From: a virus
Taxonomy: Duplodnaviria > Heunggongvirae > Uroviricota > Caudoviricetes
DNA: 4,331 nucleotides
Direction: 5' to 3' (one strand)
IMG/VR virus record: IMGVR_UViG_2671180460_000008
Coordinates: 1-4,331 of that record
Shown here: in pieces, positions 362 to 3,664 of the stretch
How the letters are laid out: every line of letters starts with the position of its first letter
Position numbering within the stretch: the first letter of the stretch is position 1
Translations under genes and position numbers: made by a program
The notes under the pieces: model-generated
The model's input: the letters and a program-made list of their open reading frames with translations, nothing else
Databases searched by the model: none
What the model was told of the DNA's origin: nothing

Positions 362-469
362 ATGTGGAAACCTACAGGTGACAAGTTAATCACCGCGTTG
401 ATTGACGGCAAGCCACAATACTTACGCATTGAAATGAGTGGTCAGCATGCTCGTTTGATTCGTGAGTAA
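362..469 (+). CDS. Hypothetical 35-aa protein
   Basis: ATG at 362 is preceded by a strong Shine-Dalgarno AGGAG at 351-355 with a 6-nt spacer; stop TAA at 467-469. Translation is MWKPTGDKLITALIDGKPQYLRIEMSGQHARLIRE. No homolog recognised. Confidence 0.35.
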   Translation: MWKPTGDKLITALIDGKPQYLRIEMSGQHARLIRE

Positions 470-480
470 CAGGCATTACA

Positions 481-507
481 GCAGCCCTTCACACACTGAG
501 GGGCTGC
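481..507. other. Inverted repeat able to form a hairpin (7-bp GC-rich stem, 13-nt loop)
   Basis: GCAGCCC at 481-487 is the exact reverse complement of GGGCTGC at 501-507. There is no U-tract after it on the + strand, so it is not a canonical intrinsic terminator for the 35-aa ORF. Confidence 0.3.
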
Positions 508-517
508 GATAATGTGA

Positions 518-560
518 GAAATAAAAAACCGGTCACAGGGAGCAGCTACACAGAACCGGC
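518..560 (-). terminator. Weak candidate Rho-independent terminator on the minus strand (repeat element copy A)
   Basis: On the minus strand a short stem (CCGGT ... ACCGG, with a long loop) is followed immediately by TTTTTTATTTC. The + strand reads GAAATAAAAAACCGGTCACAGGG at 518-540. The stem is only 5 bp, so this is weak. Confidence 0.2.
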
Positions 561-650
561 TGGCGAAGACCGCCAATATCACCCGGGCATCGGTACAACA
601 TACTTATGACAATAGACGGTATTGATGTAAATGCAATGTTATGCATCGAC

Positions 651-700
651 GAAAATAAAAAACCGGCAGGGGAAATCCATTGAAGATTTGCCGGTGGCAA
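651..700 (-). terminator. Candidate Rho-independent terminator on the minus strand (repeat element copy B)
   Basis: Minus strand reads CACCGGCAAATCTTCAATGGATTTCCCCTGCCGGTTTTTTATTTTCG: an outer stem CCGGCA / TGCCGG with inner AAATC / GATTT pairing, followed by a T6AT4 tract. The + strand carries the same A-rich CCGG core as copy A (GAAAATAAAAAACCGGCAGGGG at 651-670). Confidence 0.3.
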
Positions 701-838
701 AAGATGGCCATGCTTTCAACTTTAGTCGCAGGGTTACGGAGTGCAACAACGAATGCCACAGGTATATGGCTGAATGGCGTTGCAATGATGTACGTCATCT
801 TATCTGTAAATGTTAATGATAAATGCTCTCATTTGCGC

Positions 839-851
839 GGGTCCTTTCCGG
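839..851 (+). promoter_or_regulatory. cosQ-like element (packaging termination signal)
   Basis: GGGTCCTTTCCGG at 839-851 is identical to the 13 bp I recall at the right end of lambda DNA (GGGTCCTTTCCGG, about 17 bp before the cosN nick), which contains the cosQ heptamer GGGTCCT. Confidence 0.5.
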
Positions 852-859
852 AATCTGAA

Positions 860-890
860 ACACCGGGGGTCATGGGACGCGCAAAAACGC
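860..890 (+). promoter_or_regulatory. Predicted cosN (terminase nicking site); core sequence differs from lambda
   Basis: Located by two conserved flanks: the cosQ-like block upstream (839-851) and CGCTATTTATGAAAATTTT downstream (890-908), which matches lambda bases about 23-41. Counting from either flank puts the start of a 12-nt cohesive end at about 868-869. The local sequence CACCGGGGGTCATGGGACGCGC is not the lambda GGGCGGCGACCT. Confidence 0.45.
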
Positions 891-917
891 GCTATTTATG
901 AAAATTTTTCGAGTTCC

Positions 918-929
918 ACTTCCGGTTTT
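918..929 (+). repeat. R3-like arm of a 12-bp perfect inverted repeat (ACTTCCGGTTTT)
   Basis: ACTTCCGGTTTT at 918-929 is the exact reverse complement of AAAACCGGAAGT at 973-984. Confidence 0.5.
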
Positions 930-938
930 TTAATTATC

Positions 939-951
939 TAACCAATTGATT
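939..951 (-). promoter_or_regulatory. IHF binding site candidate (I1-like)
   Basis: The reverse complement of 939-951 is AATCAATTGGTTA, a full match to the IHF consensus WATCAANNNNTTR. It lies between the two inverted repeat arms, as I1 lies between R3 and R2 in lambda. Confidence 0.45.
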
Positions 952-972
952 AGATTGTTTTTAGTTATCAAG

Positions 973-984
973 AAAACCGGAAGT
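973..984 (+). repeat. R2-like arm of the 12-bp perfect inverted repeat (AAAACCGGAAGT)
   Basis: Exact reverse complement of 918-929. A related copy, AAAAACGGAGTT, occurs at 1013-1024. Confidence 0.5.
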
Positions 985-1053
985 CCGACCAGTTTGTGGG
1001 AAAATAGCGGCAAAAACGGAGTTGAGTGTAAAGTGAACAGCTAAAGAGGGTGT

Positions 1054-1563
1054 ATGGCAACGCAGGCGGAGGTAGCCGAGCATCTTGGTATAACTGAACG
1101 CTGGTTGCGGGATCTTCAGAAGCACCCGGGAGCGCCAAAAAATCGAAAGCGTGGTGAATACGATATTGATGCCTGGCGATATTTTTATATTTCATACCTT
1201 AAACGCAAAGGAAGAAGCGATTCTGATGACGATGGAAATAGCGATTACGAAGAAAAATTACTTATCGCCAGATGGAAATTGACTGAAGAACAGGCAATAG
1301 CACAGCAATTAAAAAATCAGGTAACCGAAGGCAAGCTCATTGATTCTGGGTTCTGCGTTTTCGCTCTCAGCAAACTGGCGATGGCATTGTCCAGTACGCT
1401 TGATTCCATTCCTTTATCCATGCAGCGACAGTTCCCGGATTTAACCCCGCGTCATATCGATTATCTGAAAACCCTTATCGCAAAAGGCGCGAATCAGTGT
1501 GCGCGGACAGGGGATAAATTGCCGGAGTTACTCGATGAATATATCCGAACTACAGCTGAATAA
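1054..1563 (+). CDS. nu1: Terminase small subunit (lambda gpNu1 family)
   Basis: 169-aa ORF directly downstream of cos. The C-terminal half (GFCVFALSKLAMALSSTLDSIPLSMQRQFPDLTPRHIDYLK ... LPELLDEYI) aligns with the lambda Nu1 C-terminus as I recall it (AFCTFVLSRIAGEIASILDGLPLSVQRRFPELENRHVDFLK ... IPGLLSEYI). The N-terminus (TQAEVAEHLGITERWLRDL) looks like a helix-turn-helix but diverges from lambda. The 3' end overlaps the large-subunit start by 29 nt, as in lambda. SD AGAGGG at 1045-1050. Confidence 0.9.
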   Translation: MATQAEVAEHLGITERWLRDLQKHPGAPKNRKRGEYDIDAWRYFYISYLKRKGRSDSDDDGNSDYEEKLLIARWKLTEEQAIAQQLKNQVTEGKLIDSGFCVFALSKLAMALSSTLDSIPLSMQRQFPDLTPRHIDYLKTLIAKGANQCARTGDKLPELLDEYIRTTAE

Positions 1564-3451
1564 TATGATGGCTGCTGTTTCAGTTGCGCTGCAGCCTCTG
1601 GTCAGGGTTGTACCGATGACGGCAGTTGAATGGGCTGATCAAAATTATTATCTGCCTAAAGAATCGTCATACGGTGATGGGGAATGGAAAACACTGCCGT
1701 TCCAGGTCGCCATTATGAACAGCATGGGGCACGACAGGATCCGCACTGTTAATCTGATTAAATCGGCGCGTGTGGGTTACACCAAAATGCTGCTGGGCGT
1801 GGTCGGGTATTTTATTGAGCATAAATCCCGTAACAGCCTGCTCTTCCAGCCGACAGATTCCGCAGCTGAAGATTTTATGAAAGCGCATGTGGAAGCAACG
1901 CTCCGGGATGTCCCCAGCCTTAAAGCGTTATCGCCATGGCTGGGCAGAAAACATCGTGACAACACACTCACCCTGAAGCGTTTTTCCTCCGGCGTGGGGT
2001 TCTGGTGCCTGGGGGGTGCCGCTGCTAAAAACTACCGTGAAAAATCAGTGGATGTGGTCTGCTATGACGAACTCTCCTCGTTTGAACCGGATGTGGAAAA
2101 GGAAGGCTCGCCAACGCTGCTTGGCGATAAACGTATCGAAGGTTCGGTATGGCCTAAATCCATACGCGGCTCAACGCCAAAAATTAAAGGCTCCTGCCAG
2201 ATTGAGAAAGCGGCGAATGAATCTGCGCATTTCATGCGGTTTTATGTCCCTTGCCCTCATTGCGGGGAGGCCCAGTATCTGAAGTTTGGCGATGATGCGA
2301 CGCCGTTTGGCCTGAAATGGGAGAAGGGTAAACCGGAAACGGTGTATTACCTGTGTGAACATAATGGCTGTGTGATCCGCCAGTCGGAACTTGACCAGAC
2401 CGACGGACGCTGGATTTGTGACAATACCGGGATGTGGACGCGTGACGGCCTGACATTTTACAGTGCCGGTGATGAGGAAATCCCGCCACCGCGCTCAATT
2501 TCGTACCACATCTGGACGGCATACAGCCCGTTCACCACCTGGGTACAGATTGTTTATGACTGGCTCGATGCACTGAAGGATCCGAATGGCGTCAAGACGT
2601 TCATTAACACCACGCTCGGGGAGCCCTATGAAGAGGCTGTGGCGGAAAAACTGAGCTTTGAGTTGTTACTGGAAAAGGTCTGTCACTATGGTGCGCAGGT
2701 TCCCCTGCGGGTGGTTTACCTGACCGCCGGGATCGACTCCCAGAAAGATCGCTATGAAATTTATGTCTGGGGCTGGGCTCCCGGCGAAGAAGCCTTTCTG
2801 ATTGACAAGCAAATTATCATGGGGCGACCGGAGGACGAGGACACCCTTAAACGTGTTGATGCGGTGATCCGGAAAAAATACCGCCATGCTGACGGTACTG
2901 AAATTTCCATTTCCCGCGTCTGCTGGGATACCGGTGGTATCGACCAGGACATTGTGTATCAGCGATCCAGAAAACACGGCACTTTTTTTGTGCTTCCCAT
3001 AAAAGGGGCATCGGTGTATGGCAAGCCGGTGATCACCATGCCCAAAAAGCGCAACCAGCGTGGTGTGTTTTTGTGTGAGGTGGGCTCCGATACCGTCAAG
3101 GAAATGCTGTACGCCCGTTTTGCCCTGCCGGTGGTTTCTGCCAGTGAAGCAGCCCCGTATACCTTCCGTTTTCCGGATAACCCGGACATTTTTTCGGAAG
3201 AAGAGGCGCGTCAAATCGTAGCGGAAGAACTGGTGGAAAAGGTGGTTAACGGCAGGGTGAAACTGCTGTGGGATAAAAAAGGGCGACGCAACGAAGCCCT
3301 CGACTGCCTGGTATATGCTTATGCCGCCCTGCGCGTTTCGGTACAGCGGTGGCAACTGGACCTTGACGCGCTGGCGAGGTCACGAAGAGATGAGCAGGAT
3401 GAGGATGATATGAGCATGGAAGAGATCGCGGCTGCACTGAGTGGAGGATAA
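1535..3451 (+). CDS. A: Terminase large subunit (lambda gpA family; ATPase plus endonuclease)
   Basis: Near-collinear similarity to lambda gpA along the whole length, from MNIS... at the N-terminus to ...ALSG at the C-terminus. Conserved at lambda-equivalent positions: Y46 (1670-1672), Walker A-like KSARVGYT at residues 76-83 (1760-1783), Walker B D178/E179 in VDVVCYDEL (2066-2071), and the Cys cluster CPHCG ... CEHNGC (2252-2263 and 2354-2371). Start set to ATG 1535 (GGAG at 1524-1527, 7-nt spacer), which reproduces the lambda N-terminus; the ORF track instead extends to an in-frame GTG at 1499. Confidence 0.95.
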   Translation: MNISELQLNNMMAAVSVALQPLVRVVPMTAVEWADQNYYLPKESSYGDGEWKTLPFQVAIMNSMGHDRIRTVNLIKSARVGYTKMLLGVVGYFIEHKSRNSLLFQPTDSAAEDFMKAHVEATLRDVPSLKALSPWLGRKHRDNTLTLKRFSSGVGFWCLGGAAAKNYREKSVDVVCYDELSSFEPDVEKEGSPTLLGDKRIEGSVWPKSIRGSTPKIKGSCQIEKAANESAHFMRFYVPCPHCGEAQYLKFGDDATPFGLKWEKGKPETVYYLCEHNGCVIRQSELDQTDGRWICDNTGMWTRDGLTFYSAGDEEIPPPRSISYHIWTAYSPFTTWVQIVYDWLDALKDPNGVKTFINTTLGEPYEEAVAEKLSFELLLEKVCHYGAQVPLRVVYLTAGIDSQKDRYEIYVWGWAPGEEAFLIDKQIIMGRPEDEDTLKRVDAVIRKKYRHADGTEISISRVCWDTGGIDQDIVYQRSRKHGTFFVLPIKGASVYGKPVITMPKKRNQRGVFLCEVGSDTVKEMLYARFALPVVSASEAAPYTFRFPDNPDIFSEEEARQIVAEELVEKVVNGRVKLLWDKKGRRNEALDCLVYAYAALRVSVQRWQLDLDALARSRRDEQDEDDMSMEEIAAALSGG

Positions 3452-3454
3452 AGG

Positions 3455-3664
3455 ATGGTTTATACGCATGAAATGCTTTGTGAGGCGCGTCGGGCATTAC
3501 ATGAACTGATGATCGGGCGTGCTGTGGTTTCTGTCGGCAGGAACGGACGGCAGGTTCAGTATTCGCGTGCGACGATTGGTGAACTGCGGCAATACATTGA
3601 AGAGCTGGAGAGTGCGCTGGGCGTGTCCGGACGGCGTCGCGGTCCGGTGGGAGTGAGACTGTGA
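3455..3664 (+). CDS. W: Head completion / head-tail joining protein (lambda gpW family)
   Basis: 69-aa ORF starting 3 nt after the gpA stop, with SD GGAGG at 3443-3447. It aligns with lambda gpW (68 aa) as I recall it: shared A-R-x-ALH-x-LM-x-G, YI-x-ELE and RRRGP-x-G motifs. Gene order Nu1-A-W-B matches lambda. Confidence 0.9.
   Translation: MVYTHEMLCEARRALHELMIGRAVVSVGRNGRQVQYSRATIGELRQYIEELESALGVSGRRRGPVGVRL

What the first reader, a model, noticed from the sequence alone, without database searches (positions are those of the whole stretch)
905..1060. cosB built from a 12-bp perfect inverted repeat around an IHF site, alongside a divergent small-terminase DNA-binding domain
ACTTCCGGTTTT (918-929) and its exact reverse complement AAAACCGGAAGT (973-984) flank a perfect IHF consensus (939-951, minus strand), with a third related copy at 1013-1024. 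This mirrors the lambda arrangement R3-I1-R2-R1, but the repeat sequence differs from the lambda R sites (CGTTTCC-type, as I recall). The N-terminal helix-turn-helix region of the small subunit is the part of the protein that diverges most from lambda Nu1, while the C-terminal gpA-interaction region is conserved. Together this suggests a co-evolved packaging specificity pair distinct from lambda, analogous to the lambda versus 21 difference.
Basis: partly seen in the sequence, partly recalled or inferred. Interest (0 to 1): 0.5.

Follow-up and report, generated by a model that had tools for sequence, protein, structure and literature searches.

The report
Prophage packaging site with new specificity
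This is the DNA-packaging start signal (cosB) of a lambda-like E. coli prophage: two inverted binding sites flank a host bending-protein site and travel as one swappable cassette with the DNA-binding end of the small terminase, which makes it a rare member of a large, apparently undescribed recognition family that reads TTCCGG-type sites.

Summary
ACTTCCGGTTTT (918-929) and its exact reverse complement (973-984) flank the only perfect IHF consensus in the window (939-951, minus strand). The third copy (1012-1024) is degenerate.

The region is a complete lambda-type cos: cosQ (838-851), cosN (about 864-881), I2 (891-908), then R3-I1-R2-(R1), then terS, terL, gpW and portal.

- Near-identical prophages swap exactly 909-1248 (cosB plus terS codons 1-65) as one cassette. 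Each N-terminal domain class comes with its own repeat.
- The domain belongs to a large family (about 2,000 clusters at 50% identity). In 28 of 30 representatives, TTCCGG lies just upstream of terS.
- R3-to-R2 spacing is exactly 56 bp in four divergent complex cosBs.
- R3 sits where lambda R3 sits.
- Profile comparison and a predicted fold place the domain with the Nu1-type winged helix-turn-helix.

Mechanism (inferred): IHF bends I1 so that a TerS dimer bridges R3 and R2 and positions TerL on cosN. No binding was tested.

It is a new member of a known kind. This class is rare (3 of 5,426 complete E. coli genomes); its sister class is in 21%.

By-product: Rpp-type satellites, including EcCICFT073, carry these phage cosB cassettes at their second cos site.

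The parts
838..851 (+). cosQ-like packaging-termination element, CGGGTCCTTTCCGG
   Evidence: 14/14 identical to the lambda right end ...ACGGGTCCTTTCCGG. Conserved in all related prophages and in the satellites.
864..881 (.). cosN region, the predicted nicking site (CCG GGGGTCATGGGA CGCGC). The exact nick positions are not determinable here.
   Evidence: It lies between cosQ and I2 at lambda spacing. The cosQ-to-I2 distance is 52 nt against 53 in lambda. Spacing and the flanking CG put bp 1 of the cohesive end at 866-869. The sequence differs from lambda GGGCGGCGACCT. The centre (870-876) varies among near-identical prophages.
891..908 (+). I2-like spacer, GCTATTTATGAAAATTTT, between cosN and cosB
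   Evidence: 18/18 identical to lambda bp 24-41. Invariant in class A relatives. The left boundary of the exchangeable cassette lies immediately after it.
909..1248 (+). Specificity cassette: cosB plus terS codons 1-65, exchanged as one unit between prophages
   Evidence: Against L006 and L008, identity is 87-93% up to 908, 50-68% over 909-1248, and 88-100% from 1249 on. The N-terminal domain is 42/67 identical and the C-terminal domain 97/102.
916..931 (+).
   Evidence: Perfect inverted partner of R2. It lies at about bp 50-64 from the predicted end, where lambda R3 lies. It is identical in the C311 satellite cos. The TTCCGG core is shared across the domain family.
939..951 (-). I1: IHF site, AATCAATTGGTTA, a perfect WATCAANNNNTTR match with an A-tract 5' on the same strand
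   Evidence: The only match in the window. It has the same strand and nearly the same distance from the predicted end as the lambda I1 core at 74-86. A perfect consensus is retained, with a change in an N position, in the C311 satellite.
973..986 (-). R2: the distal inverted TerS-binding site, AAAACCGGAAGTCC on the + strand
   Evidence: Exact reverse complement of 918-929. The R3-R2 spacing of 56 bp is identical in class B, in Salmonella L263 and in IMG/VR L128. It is mutated in one relative (L021) and lost in the C311 satellite.
1012..1024 (-). R1-like degenerate third copy, AAAAACGGAGTTG on the + strand
   Evidence: 3 mismatches to R2, and no CCGG. It aligns with the perfect R1 (AAACCGGACATG) of class B. 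It is absent from Salmonella L263 and from the satellite. Its function is doubtful.
1054..1254 (+). terS N-terminal DNA-binding domain (aa 1-67), a winged helix-turn-helix of the MATQxEVAxHL...RGxYDxDAxRxxYIxYL family
   Evidence: phrog_7289 at 2.7e-25 and phrog_57 at 1.5e-11. hhalign against lambda/21/N15 domains gives probability 78.9%, E 1.6e-5. The AF2 model has pLDDT 76.6, with helices 4-11 and 15-22, a beta wing and helix 38-56. The Foldseek top hits are MerR-type winged HTH domains and include 1j9i and 6hlk.
1255..1563 (+). terS C-terminal part (aa 68-169): self-association and gpA-binding region of Nu1 type
   Evidence: Pfam Phage_Nu1 at 6e-20 over aa 71-150. 42% identity to lambda Nu1 80-181.
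1535..3451 (+). terL (gpA-type large terminase), overlapping the terS end as in lambda
   Evidence: Pfam GpA_ATPase at 1.2e-53 and GpA_nuclease at 1.4e-68. 65% identity to lambda gpA over the full length.

Best explanation
Window 838-1053 is the cos site of a lambda-like E. coli prophage, and 909-1053 is its cosB.

Inferred mechanism, by analogy with lambda. IHF binds I1 (939-951) and bends the DNA by about 180 degrees. This brings the inverted sites R3 (916-931) and R2 (973-986) face to face. A dimer of the small-terminase N-terminal winged helix-turn-helix domain then inserts one recognition helix (about residues 15-22) into the major groove of each site. The TerS bound at R3 uses its Nu1-type C-terminal region to hold the gpA-type large subunit at a fixed distance, so that it nicks cosN (about 864-881). 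Packaging then proceeds rightwards.

What sets it apart. The recognition code is different from lambda, 21 and N15/Monarch. The site is a TTCCGG-type sequence (here CACTTCCGGTTTT). It is read by a distinct, large family of N-terminal domains that Pfam's Nu1 model does not cover. cosB and this domain form one exchangeable specificity cassette (909-1248).

What is shown and what is inferred. Shown by computation: the anatomy, positional equivalence to lambda, cassette exchange, family-wide association of domain and motif, conserved 56-bp spacing, and the fold class. Inferred: actual binding of TerS and IHF, the nick positions, and a specificity distinct from the sister class.
For: Gene context: M15 endolysin end, then cos, terS, terL, gpW and a lambda-family portal. 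TerL is 65% identical to gpA.

Lambda landmarks: cosQ 14/14 and I2 18/18 identical, and cosQ-to-I2 52 nt against 53. This puts R3 at about bp 50-64 and the IHF core at about bp 72-84. The published lambda R3 is bp 50-65 with contacts at 55-63 (PMC9026076), and the lambda I1-like core is at 74-86 on the minus strand.

Chance: the inverted repeat reached 12 bp in 2/1000 shuffles. There is a single IHF consensus in the window, and it lies between the arms.

Natural cassette swaps:
- Class A domain with ACTTCCGGTTTT (window, L001, L004, L005, L021, L022).
- Class B domain with CATGTCCGGTTT, three or four copies (78 IMG/VR loci with more than 40 distinct upstream sequences and invariant R sites).
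- Class C, the N15/Monarch-type domain, with GGTTGTTGT x3, matching the published N15 R3 GAGGTTGTTGTT.
- All three share near-identical C-terminal domains and TerL.

Family-wide association: 28/30 domain representatives (90% identity or less) have TTCCGG within 150 nt upstream of terS, against 10 hits in 13.5 kb of control sequence. In Aeromonas phage PhAER, whose record ends at a lambda-like cohesive end, the TTCCGG tandem is at bp 55-66.

Geometry: 56-bp R3-R2 spacing in four divergent complex cosBs.

Readout hint: Arg at helix position 20 goes with TGTCCGG in two separate clades.

Fold: hhalign to lambda/21/N15 DNA-binding domains, probability 78.9%. AF2 gives helix-turn-helix-wing-helix. 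The Foldseek hits are all MerR/Nu1/Rpp-type winged HTH. 20/60 family members hit HTH_17 and 20/60 hit Phage_Nu1.

Independent reuse: an Rpp-type satellite in E. coli C311 has no terS but keeps cosQ-cosN-I2-R3-I1 of this class.

Viability of the sister class: PhiR12_2-type phages recorded with MG1655 or E. coli C as host carry class B.
Against: - No binding, footprint or packaging experiment exists for this class.
- No isolated phage with class A was found. It occurs only in prophages: 3 of 5,426 complete E. coli genomes and 2 IMG/VR contigs.
- One relative (L021) has a C-to-A change in R2 and a 1-bp change in R3-I1 spacing. The satellite has lost R2. So R2 may be dispensable, or these copies may be decaying.
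- The third copy is degenerate and oriented unlike lambda R1.
- The cosN sequence is unlike lambda's, and the nick sites cannot be placed to better than about 3 bp.
- Structural matches are weak in absolute terms: all Foldseek E-values exceed 0.25, and 1j9i ranks 22nd at TM 0.51. A sequence profile search of the PDB did not find Nu1.
- The class A site (CTTCCGG) is only one or two bases from the family consensus (TTTCCGG) and from class B (TGTCCGG), so its specificity may overlap theirs.
Confidence: 0.85

Rival explanations
1. The sequence is a cosB by descent but no longer works. The prophage is defective, and the perfect repeat is simply recent inheritance, not a maintained function.
For: Class A was found only in prophages, never in an isolated phage. 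It is rare, at 3/5,426 genomes. One relative has a mutated R2. The six class A copies are 96% identical overall, so conservation within the class says little.
Against: All packaging and head genes in the window are intact open frames with full-length Pfam matches. The PapRG-04-4 prophage shows an uninterrupted lysis-terminase-portal-protease-capsid order. R3, I1 and R2 are perfect here. The same architecture with the same 56-bp spacing is kept in divergent lineages and in the sister class found in phages recorded on laboratory hosts.
Confidence: 0.08
2. The inverted repeat is an operator for some other DNA-binding protein (a transcription regulator), or part of a promoter controlling terS, and not a terminase site.
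For: Inverted repeats with a CCGG core around an IHF site also occur at regulated promoters. The repeat lies 70-135 nt upstream of the terS start.
Against: There are no sigma-70-like promoter matches in 780-1100. The motif co-varies with the TerS N-terminal domain itself, across genera and across different C-terminal domains. Its distance is fixed relative to cosN/I2, not to the start codon: it is 17-34 nt upstream in simple sites and 130 nt in complex ones. It is kept in a satellite with no terS downstream.
Confidence: 0.04
3. The two arms pair in the late mRNA to form a hairpin that controls terS translation or transcript stability.
For: The minimum-free-energy fold of 905-1060 does pair 918-929 with 973-984. 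The arm sequences change together between classes A and B, which would also preserve pairing.
Against: The fold is not unusually stable: z = -1.61, and 11/200 shuffles fold as well. There is no Rfam match. Most family members have tandem direct TTCCGG copies and no inverted partner. Class B and L128 have extra copies that a hairpin does not need. L021 changed R2 without compensation, and the satellite lost R2 but kept R3 and I1.
Confidence: 0.02
4. The site is read mainly by a satellite-encoded Rpp-TerS heterocomplex, or was acquired from a satellite, and is not the phage TerS's own cognate site.
For: Rpp-type islands carry the same cosB classes: C311 has class A, EcCICFT073 class B and ETEC1730 class C.
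Against: In the islands, these cassettes are at the second cos, convergent with rpp. The Rpp-dependent cos1 has an unrelated, simple sequence next to the rpp start (PMC6739421). The motif tracks the phage TerS domain in hundreds of phage loci that have no rpp.
Confidence: 0.01

Closest known systems
Bacteriophage lambda cos (cosQ-cosN-I2-cosB = R3-I1-R2-R1) with gpNu1/gpA terminase
   Same: The order of subsites is the same. cosQ is 14/14 and I2 18/18 identical. R3 and the IHF core are at the same distance from the end. R2 is inverted relative to R3. terS starts just downstream. The TerS C-terminal region is Nu1-type (42% identity), and TerL is 65% identical to gpA.
   Different: - The R sequence is unrelated: CACTTCCGGTTTT against CGTTTCC.
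- The N-terminal domain is undetectable by BLASTP or Pfam and is related only at profile level.
- R3-R2 spacing is 56 bp against 61.
- The third copy is degenerate and in the R2 orientation.
- The cohesive-end sequence differs.
- The IHF site is a perfect consensus, whereas the best lambda match has 1-2 mismatches.
Phage 21 versus lambda packaging specificities (Feiss laboratory; PMC4669245)
   Same: The principle is the same. There is a specificity pair made of the TerS recognition helix and the R sites, carried on a left-end segment (cosB plus the 5' end of terS). That segment can be exchanged between phages that share the rest of terminase. The natural cassette 909-1248 corresponds to the engineered hy segments.
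   Different: The lambda and 21 DNA-binding domains are about 65% identical (the 21-type example is PhiR5_1). This one is a different domain family. No packaging data exist.
N15 (simple cosB) and Monarch (complex cosB) sharing one recognition helix and R sequence
   Same: One domain family is used with both a simple cosB and a complex R3-I1-R2(-R1) cosB. Most members of the TTCCGG family are simple: a TTCCGGTTCCGG tandem at about bp 55-66, with no IHF site. The window, class B, Salmonella L263 and L128 are complex. Class C in this data set is the Monarch/N15 type itself.
   Different: The motif differs: TTCCGG against GGTTGTTGT. In the simple form, two overlapping direct copies replace the single N15 R3.
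Class B E. coli prophages and phages (PhiR12_2 type), the sister specificity class
   Same: The domain family is the same (62-63% identity over aa 1-68; 41-42 of 67 residues). The 56-bp spacing, the I1 position and the TCCGGTTT core are all shared.
   Different: The R site is CATGTCCGGTTT and the recognition helix is LTDRQLRRLQK, against ITERWLRDLQK here. There are three perfect sites plus a fourth forming a palindrome with R1. The IHF core is imperfect. It is very common, in 1,155 of 5,426 complete E. coli genomes against 3 for class A.
cos sites of Rpp-type phage-inducible chromosomal islands (EcCICFT073 cos1/cos2; PMC6092414, PMC6739421, PMC9026076)
   Same: The islands carry lambda-type cosQ-cosN-I2. 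At their second cos they carry cosB cassettes of the same classes as phages. C311 has this very R3 and I1.
   Different: The islands have no terS. Their Rpp-dependent cos1 has a simple, unrelated R3. In C311, R2 and R1 are lost.

Membership tests
Lambda-type cos site (cosQ-cosN-I2-cosB) | Conserved cosQ element about 30 nt upstream of the cohesive end | tested here: met
   CGGGTCCTTTCCGG at 838-851 is 14/14 identical to the lambda right end.
Lambda-type cos site (cosQ-cosN-I2-cosB) | cosN: nicks 12 bp apart giving a 5' cohesive end related to GGGCGGCGACCT, with flanking CG | tested here: inconclusive
   A G-rich segment with CG flanks (CCG GGGGTCATGGGA CGCG, 864-881) lies at the right distance from cosQ and I2. 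The sequence differs from lambda at most positions, and the nick sites cannot be read from sequence.
Lambda-type cos site (cosQ-cosN-I2-cosB) | I2 spacer between cosN and cosB | tested here: met
   GCTATTTATGAAAATTTT at 891-908 is 18/18 identical to lambda bp 24-41.
Complex cosB (R3-I1-R2-R1) | R3 at about bp 50-65 from the left cohesive end | tested here: met
   With bp 1 at 866-869, 918-929 falls at about bp 50-64. The published lambda R3 is bp 50-65.
Complex cosB (R3-I1-R2-R1) | IHF site between R3 and R2 | tested here: met
   A perfect WATCAANNNNTTR match at 939-951 on the minus strand, unique in the window. It has the same strand and position as the lambda core. IHF binding was not tested.
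Complex cosB (R3-I1-R2-R1) | R2 is a copy of R3 in inverted orientation | tested here: met
   12/12 reverse complement. The 56-bp spacing is conserved in four lineages.
Complex cosB (R3-I1-R2-R1) | R1 is a third copy in the R3 orientation | tested here: not met
   The only candidate (1012-1024) has 3 mismatches, lacks CCGG and points the same way as R2. In lambda, R1 is accessory (PMC4669245).
Complex cosB (R3-I1-R2-R1) | R sites are bound by the cognate TerS, and specificity resides in the recognition helix | not testable with these tools
   There is comparative support only: cassette exchange, a family-wide link between motif and domain, and the R20/TGTCCGG association.
Nu1-type small terminase (Pfam PF07471 Phage_Nu1) | C-terminal self-association and gpA-binding region | tested here: met
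   PF07471 at 6e-20, 71.9 bits (cut-off 30), aa 71-150 on profile positions 84-163. 42% identity to Nu1 80-181.
Nu1-type small terminase (Pfam PF07471 Phage_Nu1) | N-terminal Nu1 winged helix-turn-helix matching the family profile | tested here: not met
   Profile positions 1-83 are not matched, and the domain alone has no significant Pfam hit. Homology appears only at profile-profile level (probability 78.9%), through phrog_57 (1.5e-11) and at fold level.
TTCCGG-reading TerS N-terminal domain family (phrog_7289; defined here) | N-terminal signature MATQxEVAxHL..R..R.L....P...RG..D.DA.R..YI.YL at residue 1 of a 150-210 aa protein | tested here: met
   phrog_7289 at 2.7e-25. Alignments A1 and A4 show the invariant residues. 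There are 2,002 clusters at E 1e-3 or better, nearly all starting at residue 1.
TTCCGG-reading TerS N-terminal domain family (phrog_7289; defined here) | TTCCGG-type site(s) upstream of terS at about bp 55-66 of a lambda-like cos | tested here: met
   Window TTCCGG at 920-925, about bp 52-60. Found in 28/30 representatives. PhAER has it at bp 55-66.

The most novel reading that the evidence does not exclude
The window is one rare allele of a large, so far undescribed packaging-recognition system. It consists of a TerS N-terminal domain family (about 2,000 clusters at 50% identity) that reads TTCCGG-type sites in both simple and complex cosB forms.

Its cosB-plus-domain cassettes circulate not only among lambdoid phages but also into Rpp-type satellites. 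The unexplained second cos site (cos2) of EcCICFT073 is a complete class B phage cosB. Sister islands carry class A (C311) or Monarch-type (ETEC1730) cassettes at the same place. This would give the islands a second, Rpp-independent packaging route by helpers whose TerS matches. It would answer the published question of why these islands have two cos sites.
Probability: 0.45. Interest if true: 0.65.

Novelty: new member of a known kind. Interest (0 to 1): 0.42.

Why it matters
Packaging specificity decides which DNA a phage, and any satellite that rides on it, can move between bacteria. Only three lambda-like specificities (lambda, 21 and N15/Monarch) have been dissected.

This finding adds a fourth recognition family, with:
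- a clear DNA motif;
- a defined exchangeable cassette (909-1248);
- natural 'experiments' in which the cassette is swapped on an otherwise identical terminase;
- a candidate amino-acid/base contact (helix residue 20).

The sister class sits in about a fifth of complete E. coli genomes. It also appears at the second cos of the model island EcCICFT073, so the family bears on prophage cross-packaging and on satellite mobilisation. The window's own allele is an ordinary member by mechanism. It is useful mainly because its R3/R2 pair and IHF site are perfect, which makes it a clean substrate for binding studies.

Tried and rejected
- A megablast of 600-1600 against isolated phages gave only an unrelated 136-bp upstream match. 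No isolated phage carries class A.
- The single genome-contig scan returned only 4 loci: two class C and two matching only the C-terminal region.
- The search for homologous proteins with the 68-aa domain returned 2 proteins, and with the family alignment 18 short fragments. These were usable only as an alignment for structure prediction.
- A profile search of PDB sequences with the domain family did not find Nu1 or Rpp. The best hit was sigma-factor region 4 at E 0.095.
- NCBIfam and Pfam gave nothing significant for the domain.
- Foldseek E-values were all above 0.25, so the fold assignment rests on the consistency of the hit list and not on any single match.
- The RNA hairpin rival is not supported: z = -1.61 and no Rfam family.
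- The promoter/operator rival is not supported: no promoter-like site.
- The two extra AAAACCGG copies at 525-532 and 659-666 looked like possible remote R sites. They sit in a 14-nt direct repeat, and the octamer occurs 4 times against 0.28 expected. They travel with the lysis-side module: they are present in a class C prophage and absent from a class A one. They are therefore not linked to TerS class.
- I looked for a simple residue/base code for the class A peculiarities (W17, D20). None emerged.
- CFT073 itself has no second copy of the class B cosB at megablast sensitivity, so its cos2 does not match a resident prophage.
Full report
**What is in the window**

The window is a piece of an E. 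coli lambdoid prophage. It is 99.6% identical over 600-1600 to strain PapRG-04-4 and 97.3% identical to strain C5. Its contents, in order:
- the end of an M15 endolysin gene (1-81);
- a non-coding stretch;
- terS (1054-1563);
- a gpA-type terL (1535-3451);
- gpW (3455-3664);
- the start of a lambda-family portal gene.

TerL is 65% identical to lambda gpA over its full length.

**Checking the observation**

918-929 is ACTTCCGGTTTT and 973-984 is its perfect reverse complement. A perfect inverted repeat that long, with a loop of 100 nt or less, arose in 2 of 1000 dinucleotide shuffles of 780-1100.

The IHF consensus WATCAANNNNTTR matches once in the 4.3-kb window, at 939-951 on the minus strand, between the arms.

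The third copy is weaker than described:
- the best ungapped match (1012-1023) has three mismatches;
- it lacks the CCGG core;
- it points the same way as R2.

**Placing it in a cos site**

Lambda landmarks flank the repeat:
- CGGGTCCTTTCCGG (838-851) is 14/14 identical to the lambda cosQ region.
- GCTATTTATGAAAATTTT (891-908) is 18/18 identical to lambda bp 24-41, the I2 spacer.
- The distance between the two is 52 nt, against 53 in lambda.
- Between them lies a G-rich segment with CG flanks (CCG GGGGTCATGGGA CGCG). I take this as cosN, although its sequence differs from lambda's and the nicks cannot be placed better than bp 1 = 866-869.

On that numbering, R3 (918-929) is at about bp 50-64 and the IHF core at about bp 72-84. 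The published lambda R3 is bp 50-65, with protein contacts at 55-63 (PMC9026076). The best lambda IHF-like core is at 74-86 on the same strand. The anatomy is therefore nearly superimposable on lambda: cosQ, cosN, I2, R3, I1, R2.

**The protein**

BLASTP aligns only residues 61-168 with lambda Nu1 80-181, at 42% identity. Pfam Phage_Nu1 covers only residues 71-150. The first 60-70 residues have no significant Pfam or NCBIfam hit.

They do match PHROG families: phrog_7289 at 2.7e-25, and the general small-terminase phrog_57 at 1.5e-11.

A profile of 29 diverse family members aligns with a profile of lambda, 21-type, N15 and Monarch-type DNA-binding domains, with probability 78.9% and E 1.6e-5. 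Helix falls on helix and wing on wing.

An AlphaFold2 model has mean pLDDT 76.6. It shows helix 4-11, helix 15-22, a short beta wing and helix 38-56.

Its Foldseek matches in the PDB are uniformly MerR-type winged helix-turn-helix domains. They include small-terminase domains (7lw0), the gpNu1 DNA-binding domain (1j9i, TM 0.51) and RppC (6hlk). All E-values exceed 0.25, as is usual for a domain this small.

So the domain has the Nu1 fold class but is a separate sequence family.

**Does the repeat co-vary with the domain? Close relatives**

Prophages that share the flanks fall into three classes:
- Class A (window, PapRG-04-4, C5, A19 and two IMG/VR contigs) has the window's domain and ACTTCCGGTTTT sites.
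- Class B (PhiR12_2 and many prophages) has a domain 62-63% identical over the first 68 residues and CATGTCCGGTTT sites: R3, an inverted R2, a perfect R1, and a fourth copy forming a palindrome with R1.
- Class C has an N15/Monarch-type domain and GGTTGTTGT sites. These match the published N15 R3 GAGGTTGTTGTT.

Against class B prophages with the same flanks (L006, L008), DNA identity behaves as follows:
- 87-93% up to position 908;
- 50-68% from 909 to 1248;
- 88-100% from 1249 onwards.

At protein level the N-terminal 67 residues are 42/67 identical and the rest 97/102. The exchanged unit is exactly cosB plus terS codons 1-65. This is the natural counterpart of the engineered lambda-21 and lambda-N15 hybrid segments (PMC4669245).

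Over more than 40 distinct class B upstream sequences, the R sites are invariant while the spacers vary.

**Does the repeat co-vary with the domain? Distant relatives**

The same domain heads small terminases in Pseudomonas phages (LPPA33, Y8), in Aeromonas phages (PhAER), in E. coli phage vB_EcoM-705R4, in a Salmonella salamae prophage and in many environmental viral contigs. Some of these have a different C-terminal domain.

Of 30 representatives at 90% identity or less, 28 have TTCCGG within 150 nt upstream of terS. The control was 13.5 kb of downstream coding sequence, with 10 hits. The two exceptions have one-base variants.

Most carry a 'simple' site, the tandem TTCCGGTTCCGG. It lies next to lambda-like cosQ, cosN and I2 blocks. 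In PhAER, the record ends in a lambda-like cohesive sequence (GGGCGTTAGACC), with cosQ at the lambda distance. There the tandem lies at bp 55-66.

Four divergent lineages have a 'complex' site with an inverted R2 beyond an AT-rich segment: the window, class B, Salmonella L263 and IMG/VR L128. In all four, the R3-to-R2 distance is exactly 56 bp. This points to a geometric constraint of the kind expected for a protein dimer bridging an IHF bend.

Arg at position 20 of the predicted recognition helix goes with TGTCCGG in two separate clades, and Ser or Thr with CTTCCGG. This is suggestive of direct readout, but relatedness is not controlled.

A full HMMER scan found 2,002 clusters at 50% identity at E 1e-3 or better, and 417 at 1e-10 or better. 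The domain almost always starts at residue 1 of a 150-210 aa protein. Of 60 sampled, 20 have a Nu1 C-terminal region and 20 hit HTH_17.

**Mechanism**

The best-supported explanation is the lambda one. IHF bends I1. A TerS dimer docks its two winged helix-turn-helix domains on R3 and R2. The R3-bound subunit positions TerL for nicking cosN.

Established here: anatomy, positional equivalence, cassette behaviour, family-wide link between motif and domain, conserved spacing, and fold class.

Inferred: binding itself, the nick sites, and whether class A discriminates against class B. The two sites differ at only two positions.

**Rivals**

- RNA hairpin. The arms do pair in the minimum-free-energy fold, but z is only -1.61. 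No Rfam family matches. Simple sites have no inverted partner. One relative changed R2 without compensation.
- Promoter or operator. No promoter-like site was found. The motif tracks cosN/I2 distance and TerS class, not the start codon.
- Decayed prophage. This cannot be excluded for class A, which was found only in prophages: 3 of 5,426 complete E. coli genomes and no isolated phage. The genes are intact, however, and the sites perfect.

**Comparison with the literature**

Complex cosBs (R3-I1-R2-R1) are described for lambda, 21, phi80, Gifsy-1 and Monarch. Simple ones are described for N15 and PICIs (PMC4669245, PMC9026076).

I found no paper in the searchable library that mentions the TTCCGG tandem as a cos element or that describes this domain family.

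The window is therefore a new member of a known kind: the same machine with a new recognition code. It fails two membership rows:
- a lambda-type R1 (tested, not met);
- the N-terminal part of Pfam's Nu1 model (tested, not met).

Neither failure affects the claim about how it works.

**By-product: satellites**

Two E. coli genomes (C311, E423) match window 905-1016 without any terS. In C311 the match lies at the end of a 10.5-kb tRNA-Pro island. The island has an integrase, a primase, lambda E- and D-like capsid genes and a homologue of RppC (E 1.9e-34 to PDB 6hlk), so it is an Rpp-type PICI. Its cos keeps cosQ, the same cosN type, I2, an identical R3 and a perfect IHF site. R2 and R1 are degenerate.

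The prototype island EcCICFT073 has two convergent cos sites:
- The one next to the rpp start has the simple, unrelated sequence discussed in the literature, with the rpp ATG at bp 102.
- The other is a complete class B cosB.

A third island (ETEC1730) has a Monarch-type cosB there.

The original papers report that no phage cosB could be identified in the island. They ask why it has two cos sites (PMC6092414, PMC6739421). My assignment of the class B site to 'cos2' is by elimination: cos1 is the Rpp-dependent site.

This supports the view that 909-955 is a packaging signal. It also suggests that these islands keep a second, helper-matched route, which is untested.

**Verdict**

It is ordinary in mechanism and new in specificity. 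It is of moderate interest in itself, and more interesting as the entry point to a large unrecognised recognition family and to its link with satellites.

Noticed in passing
window 866-879 (variable centre 870-876); L001, L004, L005, L006, L008, L021, L261: The predicted cohesive-end centre differs among prophages that are otherwise 96-99% identical here. The variants are TCATGGG, TCGTAGG, ACGGCAG, GCGGCAG, TCATAGC, TAGGCAT and TAGCCAT, between the invariant CACCGGGGG and ACGCGCAAAAACGC. This 'type 2' cosN is combined with class A, B and C cosB, and with TerL proteins nearly identical to ones that sit next to lambda-type cosN. It is more variable than the published rule that only bp 7-12 vary.
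   Followed up: partly
L261/L262 (E. coli C311, NZ_CP062204.1, about 1,701,800-1,712,200); also E423 (H98): A 10.5-kb tRNA-Pro island with integrase, ash, icd-like, primase, SSB, lambda E-like capsid and D-like decoration genes, and an RppC homologue (E 1.9e-34 to 6hlk). It has no terminase. Its cos is 85-87% identical to window 905-1016: R3 is identical, the IHF consensus perfect, and R2/R1 lost.
   Followed up: partly
L264 (E. coli CFT073, NZ_CP051263.1 1395201-1397031): 449-640 (+) and about 1262-1130 (-); L265 (ETEC1730): EcCICFT073 has two convergent cos sites flanking rpp. The one upstream of rpp is the simple Rpp-type site. The other carries a complete class B phage cosB (CCATGTCCGGTTTC ... 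GAACCGGACATG ... AAACCGGACAT). In ETEC1730 the same position holds a Monarch/N15-type cosB. The published work states that no phage cosB was identified and asks why there are two cos sites. CFT073 has no second copy of this cosB.
   Followed up: partly
L003, L009, L010, L021-L100 (class B loci): The class B cassette (cosB plus N-terminal domain) is present at 80% coverage or more in 1,155 of 5,426 complete E. coli genomes, often twice per genome. Class A is in 3. Class B R1 overlaps a fourth, oppositely oriented copy, giving the near-palindrome AAACCGGACATGACCGGTTT.
   Followed up: partly
recognition helix residue 20 of TerS (window codon at 1111-1113) versus the base 2-3 nt 5' of TCCGG; L003, L239, L212, L232, L234, L236, L240: Arg20 co-occurs with TGTCCGG in two separate clades (E. 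coli class B and environmental contig L239). Ser/Thr20 co-occurs with CTTCCGG, and Asn20 mostly with T/GTTCCGG. This is a candidate amino-acid/base contact. Relatedness is not controlled.
   Followed up: partly
window 519-532 and 653-666: A 14-nt exact direct repeat, AAATAAAAAACCGG, contains the same AAAACCGG octamer as R2 and R3. The octamer occurs 4 times in the window against 0.28 expected. The copies travel with the lysis-side module: they are present in a class C prophage and absent from class A strain A19. They are therefore not tied to TerS class. Their function is unknown.
   Followed up: yes
window 654-789: This non-coding or small-ORF segment upstream of cos is 88-89% identical to phages phi458 and cdtI, where it is annotated as a hypothetical protein or not annotated. 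It is a mosaic module shared with otherwise unrelated lambdoid phages.
   Followed up: no
L021 (IMGVR_UViG_2541047907_000002), aligned to window 907 and 977: One class A relative has R2 changed to AAAAAACGGAAGT (CCGG to ACGG) and one T fewer between R3 and I1. This hints that R2 is dispensable or that this copy is decaying.
   Followed up: no
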